Translations under genes and position numbers: made by a program
Notes under the pieces: model-generated
Database searches by the model: none
What the model saw: only the letters and a program-made list of their open reading frames with translations
Told to the model about the DNA's origin: nothing
From: a virus
Lineage: Duplodnaviria; Caudoviricetes
Reading direction: 5' to 3' (one strand)
Virus record (IMG/VR): IMGVR_UViG_3300020045_008695
Location: 1-37,960 of that record
DNA length: 37,960 nt
Part shown: positions 706-37,960 of the stretch, one piece after another
Layout: the number at the start of each line of letters is the position of its first letter
Numbering within the stretch: the first letter of the stretch is position 1

Positions 706-1047
706 ATGAGTGATCTGATCCCAAAACCGAGGCCCAAGTCACCGCTCTCGACCTCCGAGTTGGATATGGACGCCTCGCCTCGCGTTGTAACCAAGCAGTT
801 GCGCGAAGTATTCCGCCAAGCATTCGATAGGCTTGGCGGCGCGGATTGGCTCGTCCAGTTTGCCACTGAGTCTGACCAAAACGCTCGAGTTTTCGTCCAA
901 GCTATCAGCAAGCTCCTCCCGCCGAATATGTCGCCCAAGGAAGATGAGAAGATTATCATCGATGTACCTTGGTTGACGCGCGATCGGCTTAGCTACAAAC
1001 AGACCGAGGATGCTACTATTGTGAGTATCTCCGATGGCAGACACTGA
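706..1047 (+). CDS. terS: Terminase small subunit
   Basis: 113 aa; AFDRLGGADWLVQFA...FVQAISKLLP pattern typical of small terminases; first gene of the packaging operon. Confidence 0.75.
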   Translation: MSDLIPKPRPKSPLSTSELDMDASPRVVTKQLREVFRQAFDRLGGADWLVQFATESDQNARVFVQAISKLLPPNMSPKEDEKIIIDVPWLTRDRLSYKQTEDATIVSISDGRH

Positions 1048-2548
1048 TCGCCTCGCAGCTTCCCCGCGCAATGGGTTGCTGGGCAGTCTGGTCGATACTC
1101 TTCGTGCTTTGCGGTCGAAGGGTACCGATAGGACTATTACAAAGTACTTCCCGGAAGGTCTGTCCCCAGCTGAGTTGTTACTACCTGATGAAGCGTCGCT
1201 CAATGAGCTAGATAATTGGGCTTACGGTAATGCACCAACGCATGTGCCAGATAGGATGCCCCAACTTAAGAGCAACCGCAAAGCAATAGACGTCTTAGGC
1301 GCAGCTGGAGCAGTACCGGTTGGAACGGCCGCTAAAACTGGAGGTGCAGTAGCTGCAAAAGCTGCATTGTATGCAGGTGCATTGCGCAAAGATCTACTGC
1401 TTTCGCATGCTGGAAATACAGACAGGCTACTAAAAACAGGTGAGCTACCTAAAGAGCTCTATAATTTGTCTTTAGGTATTACTAAAGACAAACCAATGCA
1501 GTTCGGTGAGTCAAATGTATTGCTAATACCTCGTGAAGGTGCATTTGACCCCAAAACACAACCTACTTCGCTTACCGCATTTGACGCGTTCACCCCGCGA
1601 AGAGCGCAAGCTGTAGGTTCTGCAGTACAGGATTTGCTACTAGATCCTGGAAACGAAGAATACATGCATGCTTTGCGTGAAGCCGCGCAAATGCGCCAAG
1701 TAGACAGGTTTGTGCCTAGTTATCTTAAAGGTGGCAGAAACAACGAAGGTACTTTAATACCGCTAGTCAGTCAACTCCCCACTTATGGGTCTGGGGGATA
1801 TACATCTGGTGGTGAGCGCATTAAATGGCAGCATAATCCCGCGGATTGGGTCGACCCCCTCAGGTCCGCAGCATATACCAGGTTTCCATCGTTTGAAGCT
1901 TACGAGAAGTCTAAATATGGCGCAGGTCGTCTAGACACAGGGCCTAATAAGAACGCGTTTGAGCTTACGCTTCCTGACTATCTTGCTAGCCACCCAACTG
2001 TTGGCGAAGATTTTGGTTTTGGACATTACCCCGGTAATGCGGAAGAATATCGCCAAGCGCTTACTAGACAGCCAGATAGTCAGTATAGTGATATTCTGAC
2101 AGGTCTGCATGAGCTGCTTCGAAATAGAACAGTGCCACCAAAAATGCGGCAGGATACTATAGATTTACTCAAACTACTGCGCACAAGTAACTCAGATTAT
2201 GGGGAGCTTAAAGCTTGGGGCCCAACAGGTTTGCACCAAGATAACTTTGCAGGAATTATAGCTGATAGTACGCTGCCTGTGAGCGCTTTGAAACAACTGG
2301 AGCGGAGCGCGGGGCGCAGAGGGCTCGCGTTTGATGCAACGCGACTTAATTCAGAGAATCCGTTAATGCAAAAAGGTGCGTTCAATATCGCTACGCAGAT
2401 GCAAGATCTACGTAAGACGGATCCGCTGCCTTTACAACTACATAAGCCTGCTGTTGAGGTAACTGAGATTCCAGATACTATGTTGACGCCTGGAGAACTT
2501 GCAACTTTCAATATGCTGAAACCAGCATGGCCTAGTATTCTTAAGTAA
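1034..2548 (+). CDS. Putative virion-borne effector with an ADP-ribosyltransferase-like (polyvalent-protein type) domain
   Basis: 504 aa, overlapping both neighbours; Gly/Ala-rich N-terminal linker, then LLLSH...LSLGIT...FG...FDP...DAFTP and a C-terminal YGELK...FAGII pattern (H-S-E). The ORF is solid; the function is inferred. Confidence 0.5.
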   Translation: MADTDRLAASPRNGLLGSLVDTLRALRSKGTDRTITKYFPEGLSPAELLLPDEASLNELDNWAYGNAPTHVPDRMPQLKSNRKAIDVLGAAGAVPVGTAAKTGGAVAAKAALYAGALRKDLLLSHAGNTDRLLKTGELPKELYNLSLGITKDKPMQFGESNVLLIPREGAFDPKTQPTSLTAFDAFTPRRAQAVGSAVQDLLLDPGNEEYMHALREAAQMRQVDRFVPSYLKGGRNNEGTLIPLVSQLPTYGSGGYTSGGERIKWQHNPADWVDPLRSAAYTRFPSFEAYEKSKYGAGRLDTGPNKNAFELTLPDYLASHPTVGEDFGFGHYPGNAEEYRQALTRQPDSQYSDILTGLHELLRNRTVPPKMRQDTIDLLKLLRTSNSDYGELKAWGPTGLHQDNFAGIIADSTLPVSALKQLERSAGRRGLAFDATRLNSENPLMQKGAFNIATQMQDLRKTDPLPLQLHKPAVEVTEIPDTMLTPGELATFNMLKPAWPSILK

Positions 2549-22409: not shown

Positions 22410-22850
22410 TTAAAACAATCTGGGTGGTCCTAAAACGACGACATTTCGGCCAGAAAGTCGCCACAATCGATCGGCGGCGGGCTCTAGGCGCGAAGCGTCA
22501 CTATAATAGAGGTCCGTACAAGGTGTATTGAGCAGCTGCTTGGTGCAACGCATGCAGGGTGCATGAGTTACATAGCAGGACTTAATAGCATCAATGTCGC
22601 GGCACTGGAGCATTGCGTTTTGCTCTGCGTGCACTGCTTCACAAAGATCTGACCCCACCGGAGCGGTAGCACCTGCGCATGGCACGTCTATACAATGGAC
22701 ACAATGCCATGGTACGCCGTTATAACCAGTTGATAGGATTCGGCCCCGCGAATCAACTAGTACGCACCCCACTGATAGTTTGCTGCATGTAGAGCGTCGC
22801 GCTAAGACTTGTGCTACTAGCATAAAGGTCTCATGTATGTCAGGTCTCAT
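22410..22850 (-). CDS. dCMP deaminase family protein
   Basis: RSTC...VGCV, TGYNG, HAEQNA and PCMRC zinc motifs. Confidence 0.95.
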   Translation of the reverse strand: MRPDIHETFMLVAQVLARRSTCSKLSVGCVLVDSRGRILSTGYNGVPWHCVHCIDVPCAGATAPVGSDLCEAVHAEQNAMLQCRDIDAIKSCYVTHAPCMRCTKQLLNTPCTDLYYSDASRLEPAADRLWRLSGRNVVVLGPPRLF

Positions 22851-23251
22851 CCGATACGTCTCCCAATAGCTCTTGCAATTTCAGATTCCGGCCCCACCCA
22901 TCCAGGCGGTTTAACTGCATCATACTTATTACCGCGTTTTGTAGTGCCTCGCTCTTTGCGCATATTAGCATTTTGAACTGCGTTCCAAATGTCATCAAAT
23001 GGCAAGTTCATGATATGCGCAGTACCTAGCGCTACATAAACAATATCTGCAAGCGCATCGGACACCCCCACTATATCACCTGACATAGCAGCATTAAGAT
23101 ACTCATCGAGTTCCTCTTGCATAAACCGGAAGCGCTCGATAACAAATTCTTGCGCCACCAACGAAGGTGTCTTTGAAACAGGTTGCTGCAGAATCTTTTC
23201 ATGAAACTCTGCAACGTCTTGCACCATTTTAGACAGCAAAGGGGTAGTCAA
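22847..23251 (-). CDS. MazG-like / PRA-PH nucleotide pyrophosphohydrolase
   Basis: EELDEY...DALADIVYV...VQNANMRK...KPPGW. Confidence 0.9.
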   Translation of the reverse strand: MTTPLLSKMVQDVAEFHEKILQQPVSKTPSLVAQEFVIERFRFMQEELDEYLNAAMSGDIVGVSDALADIVYVALGTAHIMNLPFDDIWNAVQNANMRKERGTTKRGNKYDAVKPPGWVGPESEIARAIGRRIG

Positions 23252-24065
23252 TTTTCTCTCCGTGTTGGTAGTTGTTAATTTCCAGGTGCTCAGGCTTAAA
23301 GTTATCTAACGAAGCTTCTGGAGACAACGTGTAAGTAGGTAGCCCGTAGTCTGGGGCACTAAGTTGCTTTTTAAACCGCTCTACATGATTTTCATAGATA
23401 TGCGTATCAGCCAGCATAAAAGTTAGTCGCCCAGGCTTCAGGCTTACTTCATCTGCGATTAGGATAAGCAATGCTGCGTATAGAATAATGTCGCTCGGCA
23501 AACCCAGGCACAAATCTACGCTACGCATATAGACAACACAGTCTAGATGCTTGGAGTTACATACATTAAACTGTGCTAGTATATGACACGGGGGGAGGCA
23601 GCCAAGGCTTAGTTCAGCTGGATTCCACGTAGTTAAAATATGCCTCCGGCTATTTGAATCCTCGCGCAAACTTGTAATTAGATTTTCTAGCTGATCAACT
23701 TGCGTTCCATGCAGCCCTGTCCAATAACGCCACTGGGCGCCATACACTTTGCCTACGTGCCAAGCAGCTGGATGATACTTTGCATTTGCGGGCCATGCAG
23801 CGGCATTTGCGTTCCAATAGTTACAACCAAGCATTTGAAACTCTGACAGCAATGAAGCCCCTCGCAAAAATGCAGCAAGTTCACCTAGTATAGGCTTTGG
23901 GAACATTTTACGCGTTGTCAAAATGGGGAACTGTCCACGCAGCAGGCAATTTATATGAATAAAGCTGCCAAATGTTGAGCGCGTAGGACCTGCACGTGTT
24001 TGACGCTTTTCACCGCCAGTTACTACAGCATTAACAAAACCTAAGTAGTCGCTATCAAATGACAT
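23229..24065 (-). CDS. Thymidylate synthase homolog with Asp at the pyrimidine-specificity position (candidate dCMP methylase)
   Basis: FPILTTRK, YGAQWR, SRRHILTTWNP, LPPCH, YMRSVDLCLGLPSD, DTHIYENH. Confidence 0.92.
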   Translation of the reverse strand: MSFDSDYLGFVNAVVTGGEKRQTRAGPTRSTFGSFIHINCLLRGQFPILTTRKMFPKPILGELAAFLRGASLLSEFQMLGCNYWNANAAAWPANAKYHPAAWHVGKVYGAQWRYWTGLHGTQVDQLENLITSLREDSNSRRHILTTWNPAELSLGCLPPCHILAQFNVCNSKHLDCVVYMRSVDLCLGLPSDIILYAALLILIADEVSLKPGRLTFMLADTHIYENHVERFKKQLSAPDYGLPTYTLSPEASLDNFKPEHLEINNYQHGEKIDYPFAV

Positions 24066-24391
24066 TATAACTCCTCCTCAGATTCTATAAAATCAGTAAG
24101 ATCAACTGGCGGCAAATCTAGCTTTGGACCTTGTTCGCGTAGAAATTTAGCGTAGAACACTGCGTAGTTAATTAGATCATACACAGAATCTAATGCACTT
24201 TCATAATTAGGCTTGCCAGTTCTTGCTAGTGAACGTAGTCGCAAAGTTTTAACATGCAACATTTGCACGTAACTTGCATCTTGAAATGGGAAGTAGTCTT
24301 CTAATGAAATACCTGTATTATAATCTTGATGTTTTTTGACTACCATGTCAATAGCTGGTTGAATGAGATTCAAATACGTATTTTTATCCAT
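24065..24391 (-). CDS. Nucleotide modification associated domain 1 (Nmad1/DUF1599-like) protein
   Basis: KKHQDY...KTLRLRSL...ESALDSVYDLINYAVF; start reassigned to ATG 24391 with GAGG SD. Confidence 0.8.
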   Translation of the reverse strand: MDKNTYLNLIQPAIDMVVKKHQDYNTGISLEDYFPFQDASYVQMLHVKTLRLRSLARTGKPNYESALDSVYDLINYAVFYAKFLREQGPKLDLPPVDLTDFIESEEEL

Positions 24392-24404: not shown

Positions 24405-24432
24405 AAAAGTGGGAAGCGCACTGGCTTCCCAC
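24405..24432 (-). terminator. Intrinsic terminator after 24451..24972
   Basis: 9-bp stem GTGGGAAGC/GCTTCCCAC, 6-nt loop, TTTT on the minus strand. Confidence 0.75.
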
Positions 24433-24450: not shown

Positions 24451-24972
24451 TTAAACAGTAGCAGGCTCAGCAGTCGCCGCTTGTTCTGCAGCAGCCTTTT
24501 CAGCAGCGAGCTTCTCAGCAGCTTCAGCTTTTGCCAACAGCTCTTGCGCTTCAGCACGCAATTGTTCCGGGGTCTTACCCGCTTTCTTCCCCATATTCGG
24601 GTTCTTCACAGCCGCGCGGTAATACGCAATGCACCCCATCGTAGTCTTTGCGCCCGGGAACTTTTCCTTGACAGCCGCCAGAACATCAGCGTTCGCAGAG
24701 CCTTCGCGAATCATGTTCTTGGCAAATTCACCCACGCCTTGATTCGGCCCGCGCTTGCCACTCGAGTTATACTTTTGAGCGTCGCTCGAAGAGCTTTCAG
24801 TCGGGGTAACAGTAGTTTCAGTCACAGTCTTTCCTTCTTCCAGGTTTTGAACTGCAGTACGCGCGGCAGCGAGATTCTTGAATTCAGTCACTTCAGGAAC
24901 ACTTTTAGTGACAGCAATGGCATTATAACGGGCAATCAGTTCACGCATAGACAGCTTTTTCAAATCAGACAT
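24451..24972 (-). CDS. HTH-like protein, third paralog of the junction family, with N- and C-terminal extensions
   Basis: VGEFAKNMI...ANADVLAAVKEKF...KTTMGCIAYYR aligns with VGAVCRALI...SNEDLAAKV...F...KTSAACIAWYK; AAGGA SD. Confidence 0.8.
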   Translation of the reverse strand: MSDLKKLSMRELIARYNAIAVTKSVPEVTEFKNLAAARTAVQNLEEGKTVTETTVTPTESSSSDAQKYNSSGKRGPNQGVGEFAKNMIREGSANADVLAAVKEKFPGAKTTMGCIAYYRAAVKNPNMGKKAGKTPEQLRAEAQELLAKAEAAEKLAAEKAAAEQAATAEPATV

Positions 24973-27386: not shown

Positions 27387-27558
27387 TTACTTTTACTCCG
27401 TGTTTATCAATAAACTTGTTTAGATTAAACTCAAGCTCAGGAGCCCAAGAAGGCCAGTGCGTAGGGTCTAGCGTGTTGAGTGATCTATTTAGAAGCCGCA
27501 GCAGTTCTAGCACTTCTGCGGCATTGAGCTTAATGCCAATTAGTGGTTCTTCGTTCAT
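27373..27558 (-). CDS. Hypothetical protein
   Basis: ATGA-coupled to the polymerase stop. Confidence 0.65.
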   Translation of the reverse strand: MNEEPLIGIKLNAAEVLELLRLLNRSLNTLDPTHWPSWAPELEFNLNKFIDKHGVKVNDVI

Positions 27559-28892
27559 ATTGTAAGCCTTTGTGGTTGTGTGTGCATAACTTGAGTTGTT
27601 AGACCGGTGCCATGGTCATCCCCAGTCATCTCGGCAAAGTTATAACCGCGCTCACCATCACTAGTGATTTTATAGCGCAAAGTGTCTTGAAACGCGTTGT
27701 TCATAGCTTGCTCTAAGCGCAATGCTTCTCGATCCGCGTCTTCAATTGGACATTGAATGACTAGCTGGTCGTGCACTGTCAGTATCAGCTCCCCACTACC
27801 GTTAAGCTCATCATAGTCAATCATAGCTTGCTTAGTTTGATCCGCCGCAGAACCTTGAATCTTGTAATTAGTTAGTCGGTACTCAAATGACTGCATCCGC
27901 CCACCTATGAACGCAGGCTTTGGCGGATAGTAGTACCTTCCGCCGAGTGTCTCAGTTGCTATTTTGCACTTGGCGTCGCTGGTGAGCTTTCGCTGGAACT
28001 CTGCAATTTCAGGGAGAGCTGCGAGGTATCGCTTCTTAATGCCTGTAGCTTCTGCAACGCCAATGTTAAGACTTTCAGCAATTCGTCCCACTCCTGCGCC
28101 GTAAAGAACGGCGAATCCAAGAGTCTTTGCAACTTTTCGAGTAATTCCTGCAATTCCTGCAGCGATGAGGTGGATGTCTTTATTTGGGTCGACACGTAGT
28201 TCCTCCAAGAGTTTACCGTTAGAAAAATGCGCTAAGAGCTTCATTTCTTGCGCGGAATAGTCACGCCCAATCAAGATTTTACCAGGATCGGGTAGAATGT
28301 AACGCCGCATTGAAGGCAGCTCAAATCCAAAATCACGCTCCATTTCGAAGCCCATGGATTTTAGCTGCGCAAGTAGTCCCTCCCACTCAACTGGTATATT
28401 CTGTAAATTGGGGGAGCTGCTGATCCGGCCAGTTCTAGCGCCAGTATCCGTATAGTTACGAATCTGATTCCAGCGCATGAACAAACGACCATTTTGGTTG
28501 TACTGAACTAACCAAGGTTGGAAAAAAGTACGTAAGCAAGTAGCAAGAGAACCACGAATAAGTAGACAGGCAAGAAGCCTCGGATGACCAATTGCGCCAA
28601 TGAGCGACTCTTTTGACGTACTGCGTTTATTAGTTGGTGTACGCGCAAATCCAGTTTCATTAACAAGATTAGCGAGCTCAATAGCATCTGCCAAATCAGC
28701 GTTGCTATCAACATCGAAGCGCCTCCCGCAAATTTCTTGTATTTCTTCATCAAGTTCATCCATCTTGCTGAAGTAGAAGTCAGTATCTTTTTGTAGTTTT
28801 GGCCCATCAAGATTAATACCACGACGTTCCATGTCCATGACAATGGGCATGAGACGAAGCTCTCTGCGATATGCTTCAGGCTTATAGTTCAT
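27555..28892 (-). CDS. polA: DNA polymerase A, polymerase domain (split gene)
   Basis: TGRISSSPNLQNIP; motif A DYSAQEMKLLAH; motif B RKVAKTLGFAVLYG; motif C VHDQ; probable start at 28892 by ATGA overlap. Confidence 0.93.
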   Translation of the reverse strand: MNYKPEAYRRELRLMPIVMDMERRGINLDGPKLQKDTDFYFSKMDELDEEIQEICGRRFDVDSNADLADAIELANLVNETGFARTPTNKRSTSKESLIGAIGHPRLLACLLIRGSLATCLRTFFQPWLVQYNQNGRLFMRWNQIRNYTDTGARTGRISSSPNLQNIPVEWEGLLAQLKSMGFEMERDFGFELPSMRRYILPDPGKILIGRDYSAQEMKLLAHFSNGKLLEELRVDPNKDIHLIAAGIAGITRKVAKTLGFAVLYGAGVGRIAESLNIGVAEATGIKKRYLAALPEIAEFQRKLTSDAKCKIATETLGGRYYYPPKPAFIGGRMQSFEYRLTNYKIQGSAADQTKQAMIDYDELNGSGELILTVHDQLVIQCPIEDADREALRLEQAMNNAFQDTLRYKITSDGERGYNFAEMTGDDHGTGLTTQVMHTQPQRLTI

Positions 28893-29509
28893 TTGGCACC
28901 CCAAGCTTGTGCAACTTCAGCACTCATTTGTAGTTCAGGTTTCTGGTTAAAATGCCACAAATCATCACCCCGCCCACCATTTGTATAGTATTCGTAGAGC
29001 TTCAAAGTACGTTCTACGTCGCCAATGGCGTACTGCCCTACAAGATCTCCAGGTGCTTTACTGATATACGCGCCCCAGTTTTTGTCATTAGCACGAACAA
29101 TTCCATGCCGTATAAGCCATTCCTGAACAGCATCTCGTTCTGTGGGGGGCATGTTCAGAAGCCGCTCGCATAAGGGCTTCAAAGACAATTCGCCAAACGG
29201 ATTTGTCAAAAACGCCATGAGCATTGTGTCATGTACTCTATTCCAGGGGACTTTAATGTCCATTCGCTCTTCAATCACTGCACAATCAAATGGTGCATTA
29301 TGAAAAACAAACTCATTTGCATTGTCTTTTAGATACGTACTGAGTACCATTTGTACATTGCTAAAACTAGTATTATTGCCTATCGGGTGACCCCAAGCGT
29401 GATAGACTGGTGCCTTGCTGGGATCATAAATAGCAAGACCTACTGGTTTAGGTGGATAGTTCGGACGATTATCAATTGCTTCAGTTTCAAAGTCTAGTGC
29501 TATTAACAT
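28889..29509 (-). CDS. DNA polymerase A 3'-5' exonuclease domain (stand-alone)
   Basis: ExoI LDFET, ExoII FHNAPFD, HDTM, ExoIII YAIGD; start reassigned to ATG 29509. Confidence 0.9.
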   Translation of the reverse strand: MLIALDFETEAIDNRPNYPPKPVGLAIYDPSKAPVYHAWGHPIGNNTSFSNVQMVLSTYLKDNANEFVFHNAPFDCAVIEERMDIKVPWNRVHDTMLMAFLTNPFGELSLKPLCERLLNMPPTERDAVQEWLIRHGIVRANDKNWGAYISKAPGDLVGQYAIGDVERTLKLYEYYTNGGRGDDLWHFNQKPELQMSAEVAQAWGAK

Positions 29510-29521
29510 TGATTTTCCAAT

Positions 29522-29842
29522 AAAAAGAGCCTTACGAACAATTTGGGGACTCAGACGCAGTGTCATTTGCTGACTCATGTTCGTAGGGCTTAAACTACCG
29601 GTGTGGCCACTGCGAAGTGCACCGGTAGCGTTGGGACTATGTGGGCAGTTTTACTTCATGCCCAGGAAGTCACACATTGCAGGGAGTACAAATGTTCACT
29701 ACTTTACCGTCAGGTCTGCTAGTGGCCTTTTAACTCCACGTTTCGTACTGCACAGGACTTATTTATCTCACTCGACGCGCCTGCAGACTATCCATTTACC
29801 TGTCAATTTCGCTAGCATCCATACTATGCAGGGTGTGTGAGT
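29522..29842. ncRNA. Candidate structured RNA / leader
   Basis: ~320 nt without a credible ORF, packed with stems (ctaccggtg/caccggtag, tgggca/tgccca, agccttacgaac/gttcgtagggct, ctcac..cctgca/tgcagg..gtgag). Confidence 0.45.
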
Positions 29843-37319: not shown

Positions 37320-37628
37320 TTAAGCGCTAAGCTCAATGTCCTCCAGGTTGAGCTCAATGCTCTTCCTACCGGCTCCAGTTTTGGGCAATTGGCCCTTCTT
37401 TCGCATGTCATTTTTGTACCATGCAATGCTCGCTGCAGAGGTCTGCACCTCAACGCCATGTGCTTTGAACTTTGCGACTACCTTCGCAGCGAGATCCTCG
37501 TTGCTCAATGCCATTTTGTTTTCTGCTGCGCGCCTGATCAATGCCCGGCTGTAGCTCCCCACAGTTACGAGGACCGTCTTGGTTTCCGTCAGGGTTTCAG
37601 TGTTCTCCATGCTTTGCGCTTCGCTCAT
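37320..37628 (-). CDS. HTH-like early protein, paralog of the junction gene
   Basis: ATG 37628 with GGAG SD; SNEDLAAKVVAKF...TSAASIAWYKNDMRKKGQL...KSIELNLEDIEL. Confidence 0.88.
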   Translation of the reverse strand: MSEAQSMENTETLTETKTVLVTVGSYSRALIRRAAENKMALSNEDLAAKVVAKFKAHGVEVQTSAASIAWYKNDMRKKGQLPKTGAGRKSIELNLEDIELSA

Positions 37629-37677
37629 GATACTATGCTCCAAGTTCTGCGCAGTAACATCACTGCACAGTAAATAC

Positions 37678-37727
37678 ATTATACATCGTTGGATTTTCGG
37701 AGGGAATCCTTGTTACATTTGTTACAT
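37678..37727 (-). promoter_or_regulatory. TGTAAC-box promoter
   Basis: TGTAACAAATGTAACA-agga-TTCCCT-17 nt-TATAAT. Confidence 0.85.
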
Positions 37728-37810: not shown

Positions 37811-37960
37811 TTACAACTCTACTTCATCCAGGTCAAGCGTGATGCTCTTGGCTTGTGCCTTGCCAATCAACTGACCCTTCTTGCGCATATCTGACTTGTA
37901 CCATGCGATACATGCTGCGCTCGTCTTCACTTCAACCTCGTGCTCTTTGAAGATCCCAAC
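37811..37960 (-). CDS. 3' half of the junction HTH-like gene (...GIFKEHEVEVKTSAACIAWYKSDMRKKGQLIGKAQAKSITLDLDEVEL)
   Basis: 49 codons plus TAA; aligns with the C-terminal half of 37320..37628. Confidence 0.9.
   Translation of the reverse strand, partial: VGIFKEHEVEVKTSAACIAWYKSDMRKKGQLIGKAQAKSITLDLDEVEL

What the first reader, a model, noticed from the sequence alone, without database searches (positions are those of the whole stretch)
22410..24391. Cytosine-directed thymidylate synthase homolog in a four-gene nucleotide cluster: 5-methyl-dC DNA or a dUMP-bypassing route to thymidylate
Seen: the TS motif reads RSVDLCLGLPSD (Asp codon at 23490-23492) where canonical ThyA has RSxDxxLGxPFN. Established: that Asn (E. 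coli N177) confers dUMP specificity, Asn-to-Asp switches TS toward dCMP, and T4 dCMP hydroxymethylase has Asp there. Xanthomonas phage XP-12 replaces C with 5mC using a dCMP methylase. The neighbours are Nmad1, a MazG-like pyrophosphatase (could remove dCTP and supply dCMP) and a dCMP-deaminase-family enzyme (could turn 5m-dCMP into dTMP). I saw no glycosyltransferase or dNMP kinase. Inference: either the genome carries 5mC/5hmC as anti-restriction, or the cluster makes dTMP by methylating first and deaminating second.
Basis: partly seen in the sequence, partly recalled or inferred. Interest (0 to 1): 0.8.

Follow-up and report, generated by a model that had tools for sequence, protein, structure and literature searches.

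The report
Phage 5-methylcytosine DNA gene cassette
An uncultured 38-kb phage carries the same four enzyme domains that phage Xp12 has beside its cytosine-methylating enzyme, so it likely swaps cytosine for 5-methylcytosine in its DNA to evade restriction enzymes and likely makes thymine from the same building block; this strategy is already described, and the one open point is a small gene that may be the pathway's missing kinase.

Summary
Observation confirmed. The thymidylate synthase (TS) homolog at 23229-24065 has Asp192 (GAC, 23490-23492) at E. coli N177 and keeps C146, L143, H147 and D169, the published signature of a dCMP methylase rather than a hydroxymethylase or hydroxylase. All 120 listed closest homologs share the Asp. 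The window's MazG-like and Nmad1 genes match the two halves of one fused gene lying directly upstream of Xp12's TS, which is followed by a deaminase. So this is the Xp12 cassette in a podovirus-like lineage, with a TS only 30% identical to Xp12's. The genome shows no avoidance of palindromes, as expected for protected DNA. New lead: in 63 Asp-type loci, Nmad1 (43), its relative DUF6378 (10) or a P-loop nucleotide kinase (6) sit near the TS, and Nmad1 never occurs with either of the others. Roseophages fuse MazG to a kinase where Xp12 fuses MazG to Nmad1. Nmad1 may be a new all-helical 5m-dCMP kinase (about 30%). Verdict: new member of a known kind.

The parts
23229..24065 (-). Thymidylate synthase homolog, 278 aa, predicted dCMP C5-methylase. 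Catalytic C160 (23586-23588), L157 = E. coli L143, H161 = H147, D184 = D169, D192 = N177D (23490-23492); both Arg pairs, Y94, H207 and Y209 kept
   Evidence: model pLDDT 95.9 with TM about 0.9 to ThyA structures
24065..24391 (-). Nmad1 (DUF1599), 108 aa from an ATG with GAGG upstream. All-helical, predicted homodimer; conserved K20, D23, Y24, K48, R51, D68, D72, Y76. Function unknown; candidate 5m-dCMP kinase
   Evidence: 49% over 74 aa to the C-terminal half of Xp12 QNN97215
22847..23227 (-). MazG-like (PRA-PH family) nucleotide pyrophosphohydrolase with its acidic EELDE...DALAD motif; start is ATG 23227 or TTG 23251. Predicted dCTPase; substrate not shown
   Evidence: 35% over 127 aa to the N-terminal half of Xp12 QNN97215
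22410..22850 (-). dCMP-deaminase-family zinc enzyme, 146 aa, with HAE and PCxxC motifs. Predicted to deaminate a 5-methyl-dC nucleotide to the dT nucleotide
   Evidence: 34% over 98 aa to the Xp12 deaminase
24409..24432 (-). Terminator-like hairpin (9 pairs, then T run) just upstream of the cassette; consensus match only
   Evidence: 3 found, 3.7 expected in shuffles
24451..24972 (-). Conserved unknown gene directly upstream of the cassette, found in 10 of 10 genomes compared. A homolog lies between the helicase and the cassette in Xp12. Role in the pathway not shown
27555..29578 (-). Family A DNA polymerase in two genes (exonuclease 28889-29578, polymerase 27555-28904); would incorporate the modified dCTP

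Best explanation
The four genes are an Xp12-type cassette that likely replaces cytosine with 5-methylcytosine in the phage DNA and likely supplies thymidine from the same methylated pool. Steps: (1) the MazG-like enzyme hydrolyses dCTP to dCMP, removing the competing base and feeding the next step (inferred from family and position); (2) the TS homolog methylates dCMP at C5 using methylene-tetrahydrofolate, recycled by host DHFR (residues shown, activity inferred from tested relatives); (3) 5m-dCMP is phosphorylated to 5m-dCTP by Nmad1 or by host kinases (open); (4) the phage polymerase incorporates 5m-dCTP, and the DNA then resists most type II restriction enzymes (inferred from Xp12); (5) the deaminase converts part of the 5-methyl-dC nucleotide to the dT nucleotide, so no dUMP-methylating TS is needed (inferred).
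For: N177D with L143 and D169 kept is the methylase pattern as stated in PMC13326640 and PMC8670742. All four domains have homologs side by side in Xp12, whose DNA is 100% 5mC and resists 196 of 218 type II enzymes. The window's Nmad1 hits 45 of 50,697 phage records: 44 are Xp12-like siphoviruses, by names that also head the Xp12 TS search, and one is Pelagibacter phage Kolga, which also has an Asp TS. MazG and deaminase both lie within 4 kb of the TS in 55 of 63 Asp-type loci and 0 of 53 Asn-type loci. Published base rate: 104 of 149 deaminases on modified contigs have a TS nearby, against 17 of 277 on unmodified ones; 5 of 7 TS tested made 5mdC. C/G-containing 4-base palindromes are not avoided in the window (mean log2 O/E +0.04, worst palindrome -0.19). 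Median is -0.03 in 14 Asp-type genomes against -0.27 in 35 Asn-type loci, p 3e-4; GC-matched, 13 against 12, p 0.015. Kolga's complete genome has Nmad1-TS(Asp)-MazG but no deaminase, so there the TS cannot be serving dTMP supply through a phage deaminase.
Against: Nothing was measured on this phage. Its TS is only 30% identical to Xp12's, slightly closer to E. coli ThyA (33%), and passes the TIGR03284 thymidylate synthase cut-off that Xp12's misses. It keeps H147, a position found to differ on modified contigs; Xp12 has Pro there. Two of 7 tested Asp-type TS gave no 5mdC. No DHFR is encoded here, while Xp12 has one. The neighbour profiles were seeded from Asp-type loci, so the Asn-type counts may be too low. 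The palindrome test is confounded by host and kinship, and several Asn-type loci also show no avoidance.
Confidence: 0.8

Rival explanations
1. Thymidylate detour only: dCMP is methylated and all of the product is deaminated to dT nucleotides, so the DNA stays canonical or only partly methylated; the MazG enzyme cleans up dUTP or 5m-dCTP.
For: TS and deaminase are tightly linked: 57 of 63 Asp-type loci and 10 of 10 records searched whole. MazG substrate is unknown. About half of the 17 TS near a deaminase on unmodified contigs were not predicted to make dT.
Against: The tested deaminase mSCD-B5 acts only on triphosphates, so 5m-dCTP would be in the pool. Kolga has the Asp TS without a deaminase. 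Palindromes are not avoided. Xp12, with the same domains, is fully substituted.
Confidence: 0.08
2. The TS is a dCMP hydroxymethylase or makes another C5 product, and the DNA carries 5hmC.
For: Asp177 alone does not separate methyl from hydroxymethyl. No DHFR is in the window, and hydroxymethylation does not oxidise folate (established knowledge, recalled). The position-143 rule is only a correlation: Xp12 has Asn there and still methylates.
Against: L143 is kept where T4 gp42 has Asp, and D169 is kept where hydroxylases have Asn. No glycosyl-, carbamoyl-transferase or dioxygenase was found in the window or among 148 further ORFs from 9 relatives. DHFR is also missing near 40 of 53 ordinary Asn-type TS. 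One relative carries an R67-type DHFR.
Confidence: 0.07
3. An ordinary dUMP-to-dTMP pathway (dCTP/dUTP pyrophosphatase, dCMP deaminase, TS) in which the TS tolerates Asp177.
For: Overall sequence and fold are ThyA-like; H147 is kept.
Against: Asn-to-Asp switches preference to dCMP in the cited mutagenesis. The enzyme sits in an all-Asp clade of 37 rows (SH-aLRT 97). The neighbours are absent from Asn-type loci.
Confidence: 0.05

Closest known systems
Xanthomonas phage Xp12 / Pseudomonas phage PaMx74 5-methylcytosine cassette
   Same: Asp177 TS with a deaminase downstream and MazG plus Nmad1 directly upstream; homologous unknown gene and SNF2-type helicase and PolA further upstream.
   Different: TS only 30% identical; the window keeps L143 and H147 where Xp12 has N and P. 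MazG and Nmad1 are separate genes flanking the TS, not fused. No DHFR or ribonucleotide reductase here. 38-kb podovirus-like genome at 48% GC against a 64-kb siphovirus at 68% GC.
MetaGPA / mSCD loci (Yang et al., bioRxiv 10.1101/2024.12.05.627091; PMC8670742)
   Same: Same neighbourhood (TS N177D, dCMP deaminase, PRA-PH, PolA, PolA exonuclease) enriched on cytosine-modified contigs; same proposed route from 5mdCTP to dTTP.
   Different: Whether this exact clade was among the tested enzymes could not be seen (preprint supplements are closed). 5mC selectivity is polyphyletic, with no diagnostic residue given. DUF1599 was not significantly enriched in MetaGPA (1 against 35 contigs).
T4 gp42 dCMP hydroxymethylase and RB69 gp48-type dCMP hydroxylases
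   Same: TS fold, Asp177, partnered with a dCTPase and a kinase.
   Different: They carry D/E at 143 (hydroxylases also N at 169) and come with glycosyltransferases; none of these applies here.
Roseobacter phage RDJL phi1, Rhodobacter phage RcSimone-Hastad, Stenotrophomonas phage AXL3
   Same: Asp TS with deaminase and MazG in one block.
   Different: A P-loop dNMP or thymidylate kinase (PHROG 139 or 761, E 1e-11 to 1e-12) stands where Xp12 and the window have Nmad1; in the first two it is fused to MazG.
Stenotrophomonas phage BUCT555 (closest cultured phage by capsid, 59.5%)
   Same: Similar size, capsid and replication genes.
   Different: No TS is annotated. It has a PurZ-like synthetase, MazG-like and HD genes (a diaminopurine-type block) and a DUF6378 gene beside its polymerase and primase.

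Membership tests
Xp12-type dCMP methylase cassette | TS homolog with Asp at E. coli position 177 | tested here: met
   D192
Xp12-type dCMP methylase cassette | Intact TS catalytic set (C146, R21, R126, R127, R166, S167, D169, Y94, H207, Y209, E58) | tested here: met
Xp12-type dCMP methylase cassette | Linked PF00383 deaminase and PRA-PH/MazG enzyme, and Nmad1 | tested here: met
Xp12-type dCMP methylase cassette | TS in one clade with the Xp12 enzyme | tested here: inconclusive
   Quick tree of 111 rows: window lies in an all-Asp clade of 37; Xp12 and T4 gp42 are long branches that meet, so one origin is neither shown nor excluded
Xp12-type dCMP methylase cassette | Enzyme makes 5m-dCMP; virion DNA carries 5mC in place of C | not testable with these tools
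   Only an indirect palindrome signal
Methyl-selective cytidine deaminases (mSCD) | Preference for 5mC over C | not testable with these tools
   Trait is polyphyletic with no stated sequence marker
dCMP hydroxymethylases (T4 gp42, MilA) | Asp or Glu at position 143 | tested here: not met
   Leu157
5-hydroxy-dCMP synthases (RB69 gp48) | Asn at position 169 | tested here: not met
   Asp184
Canonical ThyA | Asn177 | tested here: not met
   although the TIGR03284 score cut-off is passed
T7 gp1.7 / DUF3310 nucleotide kinases (for Nmad1) | Detectable sequence-profile homology | tested here: not met
   hhalign probability under 1% with 204 Nmad1 and 81 DUF3310 rows
MazG-like all-alpha NTP pyrophosphatases (for Nmad1) | Fold and dimer | tested here: inconclusive
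   Best structural rows include MazG and PRA-PH proteins at Z 6.7-7.2 (63-73 aligned, rmsd 3.4-3.9) and AF_0060 at Z 8.5 (81 aligned, rmsd 3.3), weak for a helical bundle; dimer predicted
MazG-like all-alpha NTP pyrophosphatases (for Nmad1) | Acidic ExxE metal-binding motif on the central helix (motif recalled) | tested here: not met
   Invariant K48 and R51 on that helix; only D68 and D72 on the next

The most novel reading that the evidence does not exclude
Nmad1 (DUF1599) and its relative DUF6378 are a new class of roughly 90-residue, all-helical nucleoside monophosphate kinases built on a MazG-like dimer. They phosphorylate 5m-dCMP and are the unassigned gene for the phage-induced 5-methyl-dCMP kinase reported in 1982. 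They replace P-loop kinases in place: MazG-Nmad1 in Xp12 and PaMx74, MazG-dNMP kinase in RDJL phi1 and RcSimone.
Probability: 0.3. Interest if true: 0.65.

Novelty: new member of a known kind. Interest (0 to 1): 0.38.

Why it matters
If right, full 5mC substitution extends to a large uncultured lineage of 35-60 kb phages, mostly podovirus-like, with a TS clade far from Xp12's. Databases label these genes 'thymidylate synthase', so they are miscounted as ordinary dTMP-supply genes. The deaminases are further candidates for 5mC-selective sequencing reagents. The real open question is step 3: the Xp12 pathway needs a kinase and none is annotated. The gene-slot pattern names a testable candidate, a domain without an assigned function, and a kinase on that fold would be new enzymology.

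Tried and rejected
(1) 'Close relatives lack the deaminase, so the TS must serve DNA modification': an artefact of my ORF filter; 5 of 5 such records have a deaminase when searched whole. Only Kolga stands as a complete deaminase-less case. (2) Nmad1 as a homolog of the T7 gp1.7 kinase domain (DUF3310): no profile similarity. (3) Kolga's Nmad1 tail as an R67-type DHFR: no Pfam or PHROG match. (4) Sequencing runs holding the region: none was listed, which is no evidence either way. (5) Host clue from prokaryote genomes: one distant hit (38%) in a Lentisphaerae bin; not informative. (6) The TS motif in the eLife MetaGPA supplements: 0 hits, but the archive was cut and the part seen held enrichment tables, not sequences. 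(7) Pfam kinase searches of whole genomes are insensitive: PF21448 found 0 of 5 and missed the RDJL phi1 kinase; PF02223 found only AXL3, weakly. phmmer of the RDJL kinase domain against PDB sequences found nothing. (8) A careful tree did not finish; only the quick tree is used, with 30 of 141 rows dropped as at least 85% identical. (9) A locus search with the Nmad1 alignment could not run, so Nmad1's neighbours were not sampled independently of TS. (10) Two papers were not held (T7 gp1.7 kinase; a paper I recalled as defining Nmad1). (11) Promoter scan: 7 sites against 5.6 expected.

Full report
Setting. The window is a whole 37,960-base virus record with structural genes on the plus strand and replication genes on the minus strand. 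Terminase, portal, major head, SU10-type adaptor, ligase, primase-helicase, split PolA, exonuclease, VRR-NUC and SNF2 helicase are found (52 of 154 ORFs scanned). The closest cultured capsids are Stenotrophomonas phage BUCT555 (59.5%) and Myxococcus phages Mx8 and Mx9 (56%). A short tail is inferred from these genes. The host is unknown, and no exact terminal repeat of 16 bases or more was found.

Observation. The four genes are as described and are translationally coupled. Against E. coli ThyA from MG1655, T4 gp42 and Xp12 TS, the enzyme keeps R21, E58, W80, Y94, R126, R127, L143, C146, H147, R166, S167, D169, G173, H207 and Y209, and changes I79Y, Q165M, F176S and N177D. The model has pLDDT 95.9 and TM about 0.9 to ThyA structures. 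All 120 listed homologs (51-61% identity apart from the query itself; 524 hits in all) have Asp at 177. In a quick maximum-likelihood tree of 111 rows the enzyme lies in an all-Asp clade of 37 (SH-aLRT 97). Xp12 and T4 gp42 are long branches, so the number of origins of Asp177 is open.

What the residues mean. PMC13326640 (passages and section 24 read) states that N177D gives dCMP preference, that a hydrophobic 143 goes with methyl and D/E with hydroxymethyl products, and that D169N marks hydroxylases. PMC8670742 (passages and supplements 1-4 searched) found positions 177 and 147 to differ most between modified and unmodified contigs. The window fits a methylase at 177, 143 and 169, and is atypical in keeping H147. 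The 143 rule is not strict, since Xp12 has Asn there.

It is the Xp12 cassette. Xp12 has, in order, a 257-aa 'hydrolase', TS, deaminase and DHFR. The window's MazG gene matches the first half of that hydrolase (35% over 127 aa) and Nmad1 matches the second half (49% over 74 aa). The TS matches at 30%, the deaminase at 34%, and the gene upstream at 52% over 46 aa. Nmad1 hits 45 of 50,697 phage records: 44 Xp12-like phages and Pelagibacter phage Kolga. I scored 143 distinct TS loci, and kept 63 of 81 Asp-type and 53 of 62 Asn-type with enough flank. MazG and deaminase both lie within 4 kb in 55 of 63 against 0 of 53, and Nmad1 in 43 against 1. The profiles were seeded from Asp-type loci, and nine of the loci are GenBank records I chose, so these are not unbiased frequencies.

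Prior art. Yang et al. (bioRxiv 10.1101/2024.12.05.627091; parts 1-3 of 11, sections 20-21 and passages read) report the same neighbourhood on restriction-resistant contigs. They show 5mdC production for 5 of 7 TS and a deaminase that converts 99% of 5mdCTP against 4% of dCTP in 30 minutes, with no activity on monophosphates, and they propose that this supplies dTTP. Xp12 DNA is 100% 5mC and resists 196 of 218 type II enzymes (PMC7653180, passages). A 1982 title on a new thymidylate route in Xp12 infection appears in a reference list (PMC8543423, passages); I did not see that paper. The preprint's supplements are closed, so I cannot say whether this clade was tested. An earlier AI note on another genome reached the same reading; it is not independent support.

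Indirect test on the DNA. A genome protected at every C should have little reason to avoid restriction sites. In the window, C/G-containing 4-base palindromes have mean log2 observed/expected +0.04, the worst palindrome is -0.19, GATC is 1.0 and 6-base palindromes 0.96. Medians are -0.03 for 14 Asp-type genomes and -0.27 for 35 Asn-type loci (p 3e-4; 6-mers 0.91 against 0.84, p 0.005). Restricting to GC of 41-68% gives -0.02 (13) against -0.18 (12), p 0.015. One Asp-type genome (G012) does avoid GATC, several Asn-type loci avoid nothing, and kin are not independent. This is modest support.

No hypermodification. Pfam scans of 148 further ORFs from nine relatives found no glycosyltransferase, carbamoyltransferase, dioxygenase or ThyX. 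That set was 107 ORFs from seven genomes and 41 of 83 candidates from two larger ones; ORFs under 90 aa and repeat members of a cluster were left out. One relative has an R67-type DHFR. Xp15, by contrast, has a carbamoyltransferase next to its Asp TS.

The Nmad1 lead. Among the 63 Asp-type loci, Nmad1 (43), DUF6378 (10) and P-loop kinases (6) lie near the TS. Nmad1 never occurs with either of the others, DUF6378 occurs with a kinase once (Xp15), and 5 loci have none. Over 45 groups at 70% TS identity, helical protein and P-loop kinase coincide once against about 5 expected (Fisher p 6e-4, not corrected for phylogeny). RDJL phi1 and RcSimone fuse MazG to a dNMP-kinase domain (PHROG 139, E 1e-12 and 2e-11) at the spot where Xp12 and PaMx74 fuse MazG to Nmad1. 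Nmad1 and DUF6378 share K-x-x-R and D-x-x-x-D-x-x-x-Y (hhalign 74%, E 3e-5). Nmad1 is four helices (pLDDT 86) with weak best matches that include MazG-family proteins. It is predicted to pair with itself: score 0.72, best control 0.00, contacts agreeing at 96% or more, pLDDT at least 86; the mark was reached by 20 of 30 known pairs and 1 of 23 single chains, and the ligands were not scored. Basic residues replace the acidic metal-binding motif. A phage kinase for 5-methyl-dCMP is cited in PMC10742078 (passage and reference); that it came from Xp12 is my recollection. My profiles find no P-loop nucleotide kinase in Xp12.

Against the lead. There is no homology to the one known small helical kinase domain, T7 gp1.7/DUF3310. 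Two near-complete Asp-type genomes (G011, G012) have no Nmad1, DUF6378 or detectable kinase, so host kinases can apparently do the job in some hosts; RB69 gp48 alone gave trace incorporation in E. coli. Three of nine relatives carry an AAA_33 P-loop protein of unknown substrate elsewhere alongside Nmad1. DUF6378 also sits in BUCT555's diaminopurine-type block, and DUF1599 overall was not enriched on modified contigs. Nmad1 could instead be a second pyrophosphatase or a specificity subunit of MazG, to which it is often fused (PRA-PH found in 28 of 49 longer hits scanned). Searches for Nmad1/DUF1599, DUF6378, gp1.7/DUF3310 and the Xp12 kinase listed no paper whose title or abstract assigns it a function; subscription journals are not covered.

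Verdict. Observation confirmed, interpretation supported, and known in kind. 5mC substitution with thymidine supply from the same pool: 0.8. New member of a known kind, interest 0.38. Nmad1 as a new kinase class: probability 0.3, interest 0.65 if true.

Noticed in passing
window 27555-29578 (-): Family A polymerase is in two genes split at the exonuclease/polymerase boundary; the halves match residues 3-173 and 185-595 of an unsplit relative. Many relatives are split the same way, and in L105 another ORF lies between the halves.
   Followed up: partly
L188 13954-16572 (BUCT555): The closest cultured phage by capsid has a PurZ-like, MazG-like, HD and DUF6378 block beside its replication genes instead of the TS block, so this lineage seems to swap base-substitution modules.
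   Followed up: partly
L277 5983-7637 (Pelagibacter phage Kolga EXVC016S): A cultured SAR11 phage with Nmad1, Asp-type TS and MazG but no deaminase in its 48.7-kb genome; a ready test case for 5mC DNA.
   Followed up: partly
window 24451-24972, 37320-37679, 37811-37960 and 1-159 (all -): Several related small proteins of unknown function (PHROG 17205/34102) with a shared C-terminal motif; at least one copy is in 10 of 10 genomes compared and in Xp12.
   Followed up: partly
window about 260-330: Short tandem 9-base repeat (read as HVTHVT/VLHVLH in two frames) in the non-coding stretch before the small terminase; possible origin or packaging signal.
   Followed up: no
window 1034-2548 (+): 504-aa ORF between the small and large terminase genes with no Pfam, PHROG or NCBIfam match; relatives in 3 of 9 other genomes.
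   Followed up: partly
L002 7004-8772 and 11930-13570: TS, MazG, deaminase and HNH genes occur twice in one contig; real duplication or assembly repeat not checked.
   Followed up: no
L168 984-1655, L170 118-771, L183 3493-4332: Three relatives encode PEP-CTERM proteins, a possible hint at their hosts.
   Followed up: no
L043 7411-8997 and L144 495-1307: Two Asp-type TS fall among Asn-type sequences in the tree, suggesting separate N-to-D switches; L144 has DHFR and a dNMP kinase beside it.
   Followed up: no
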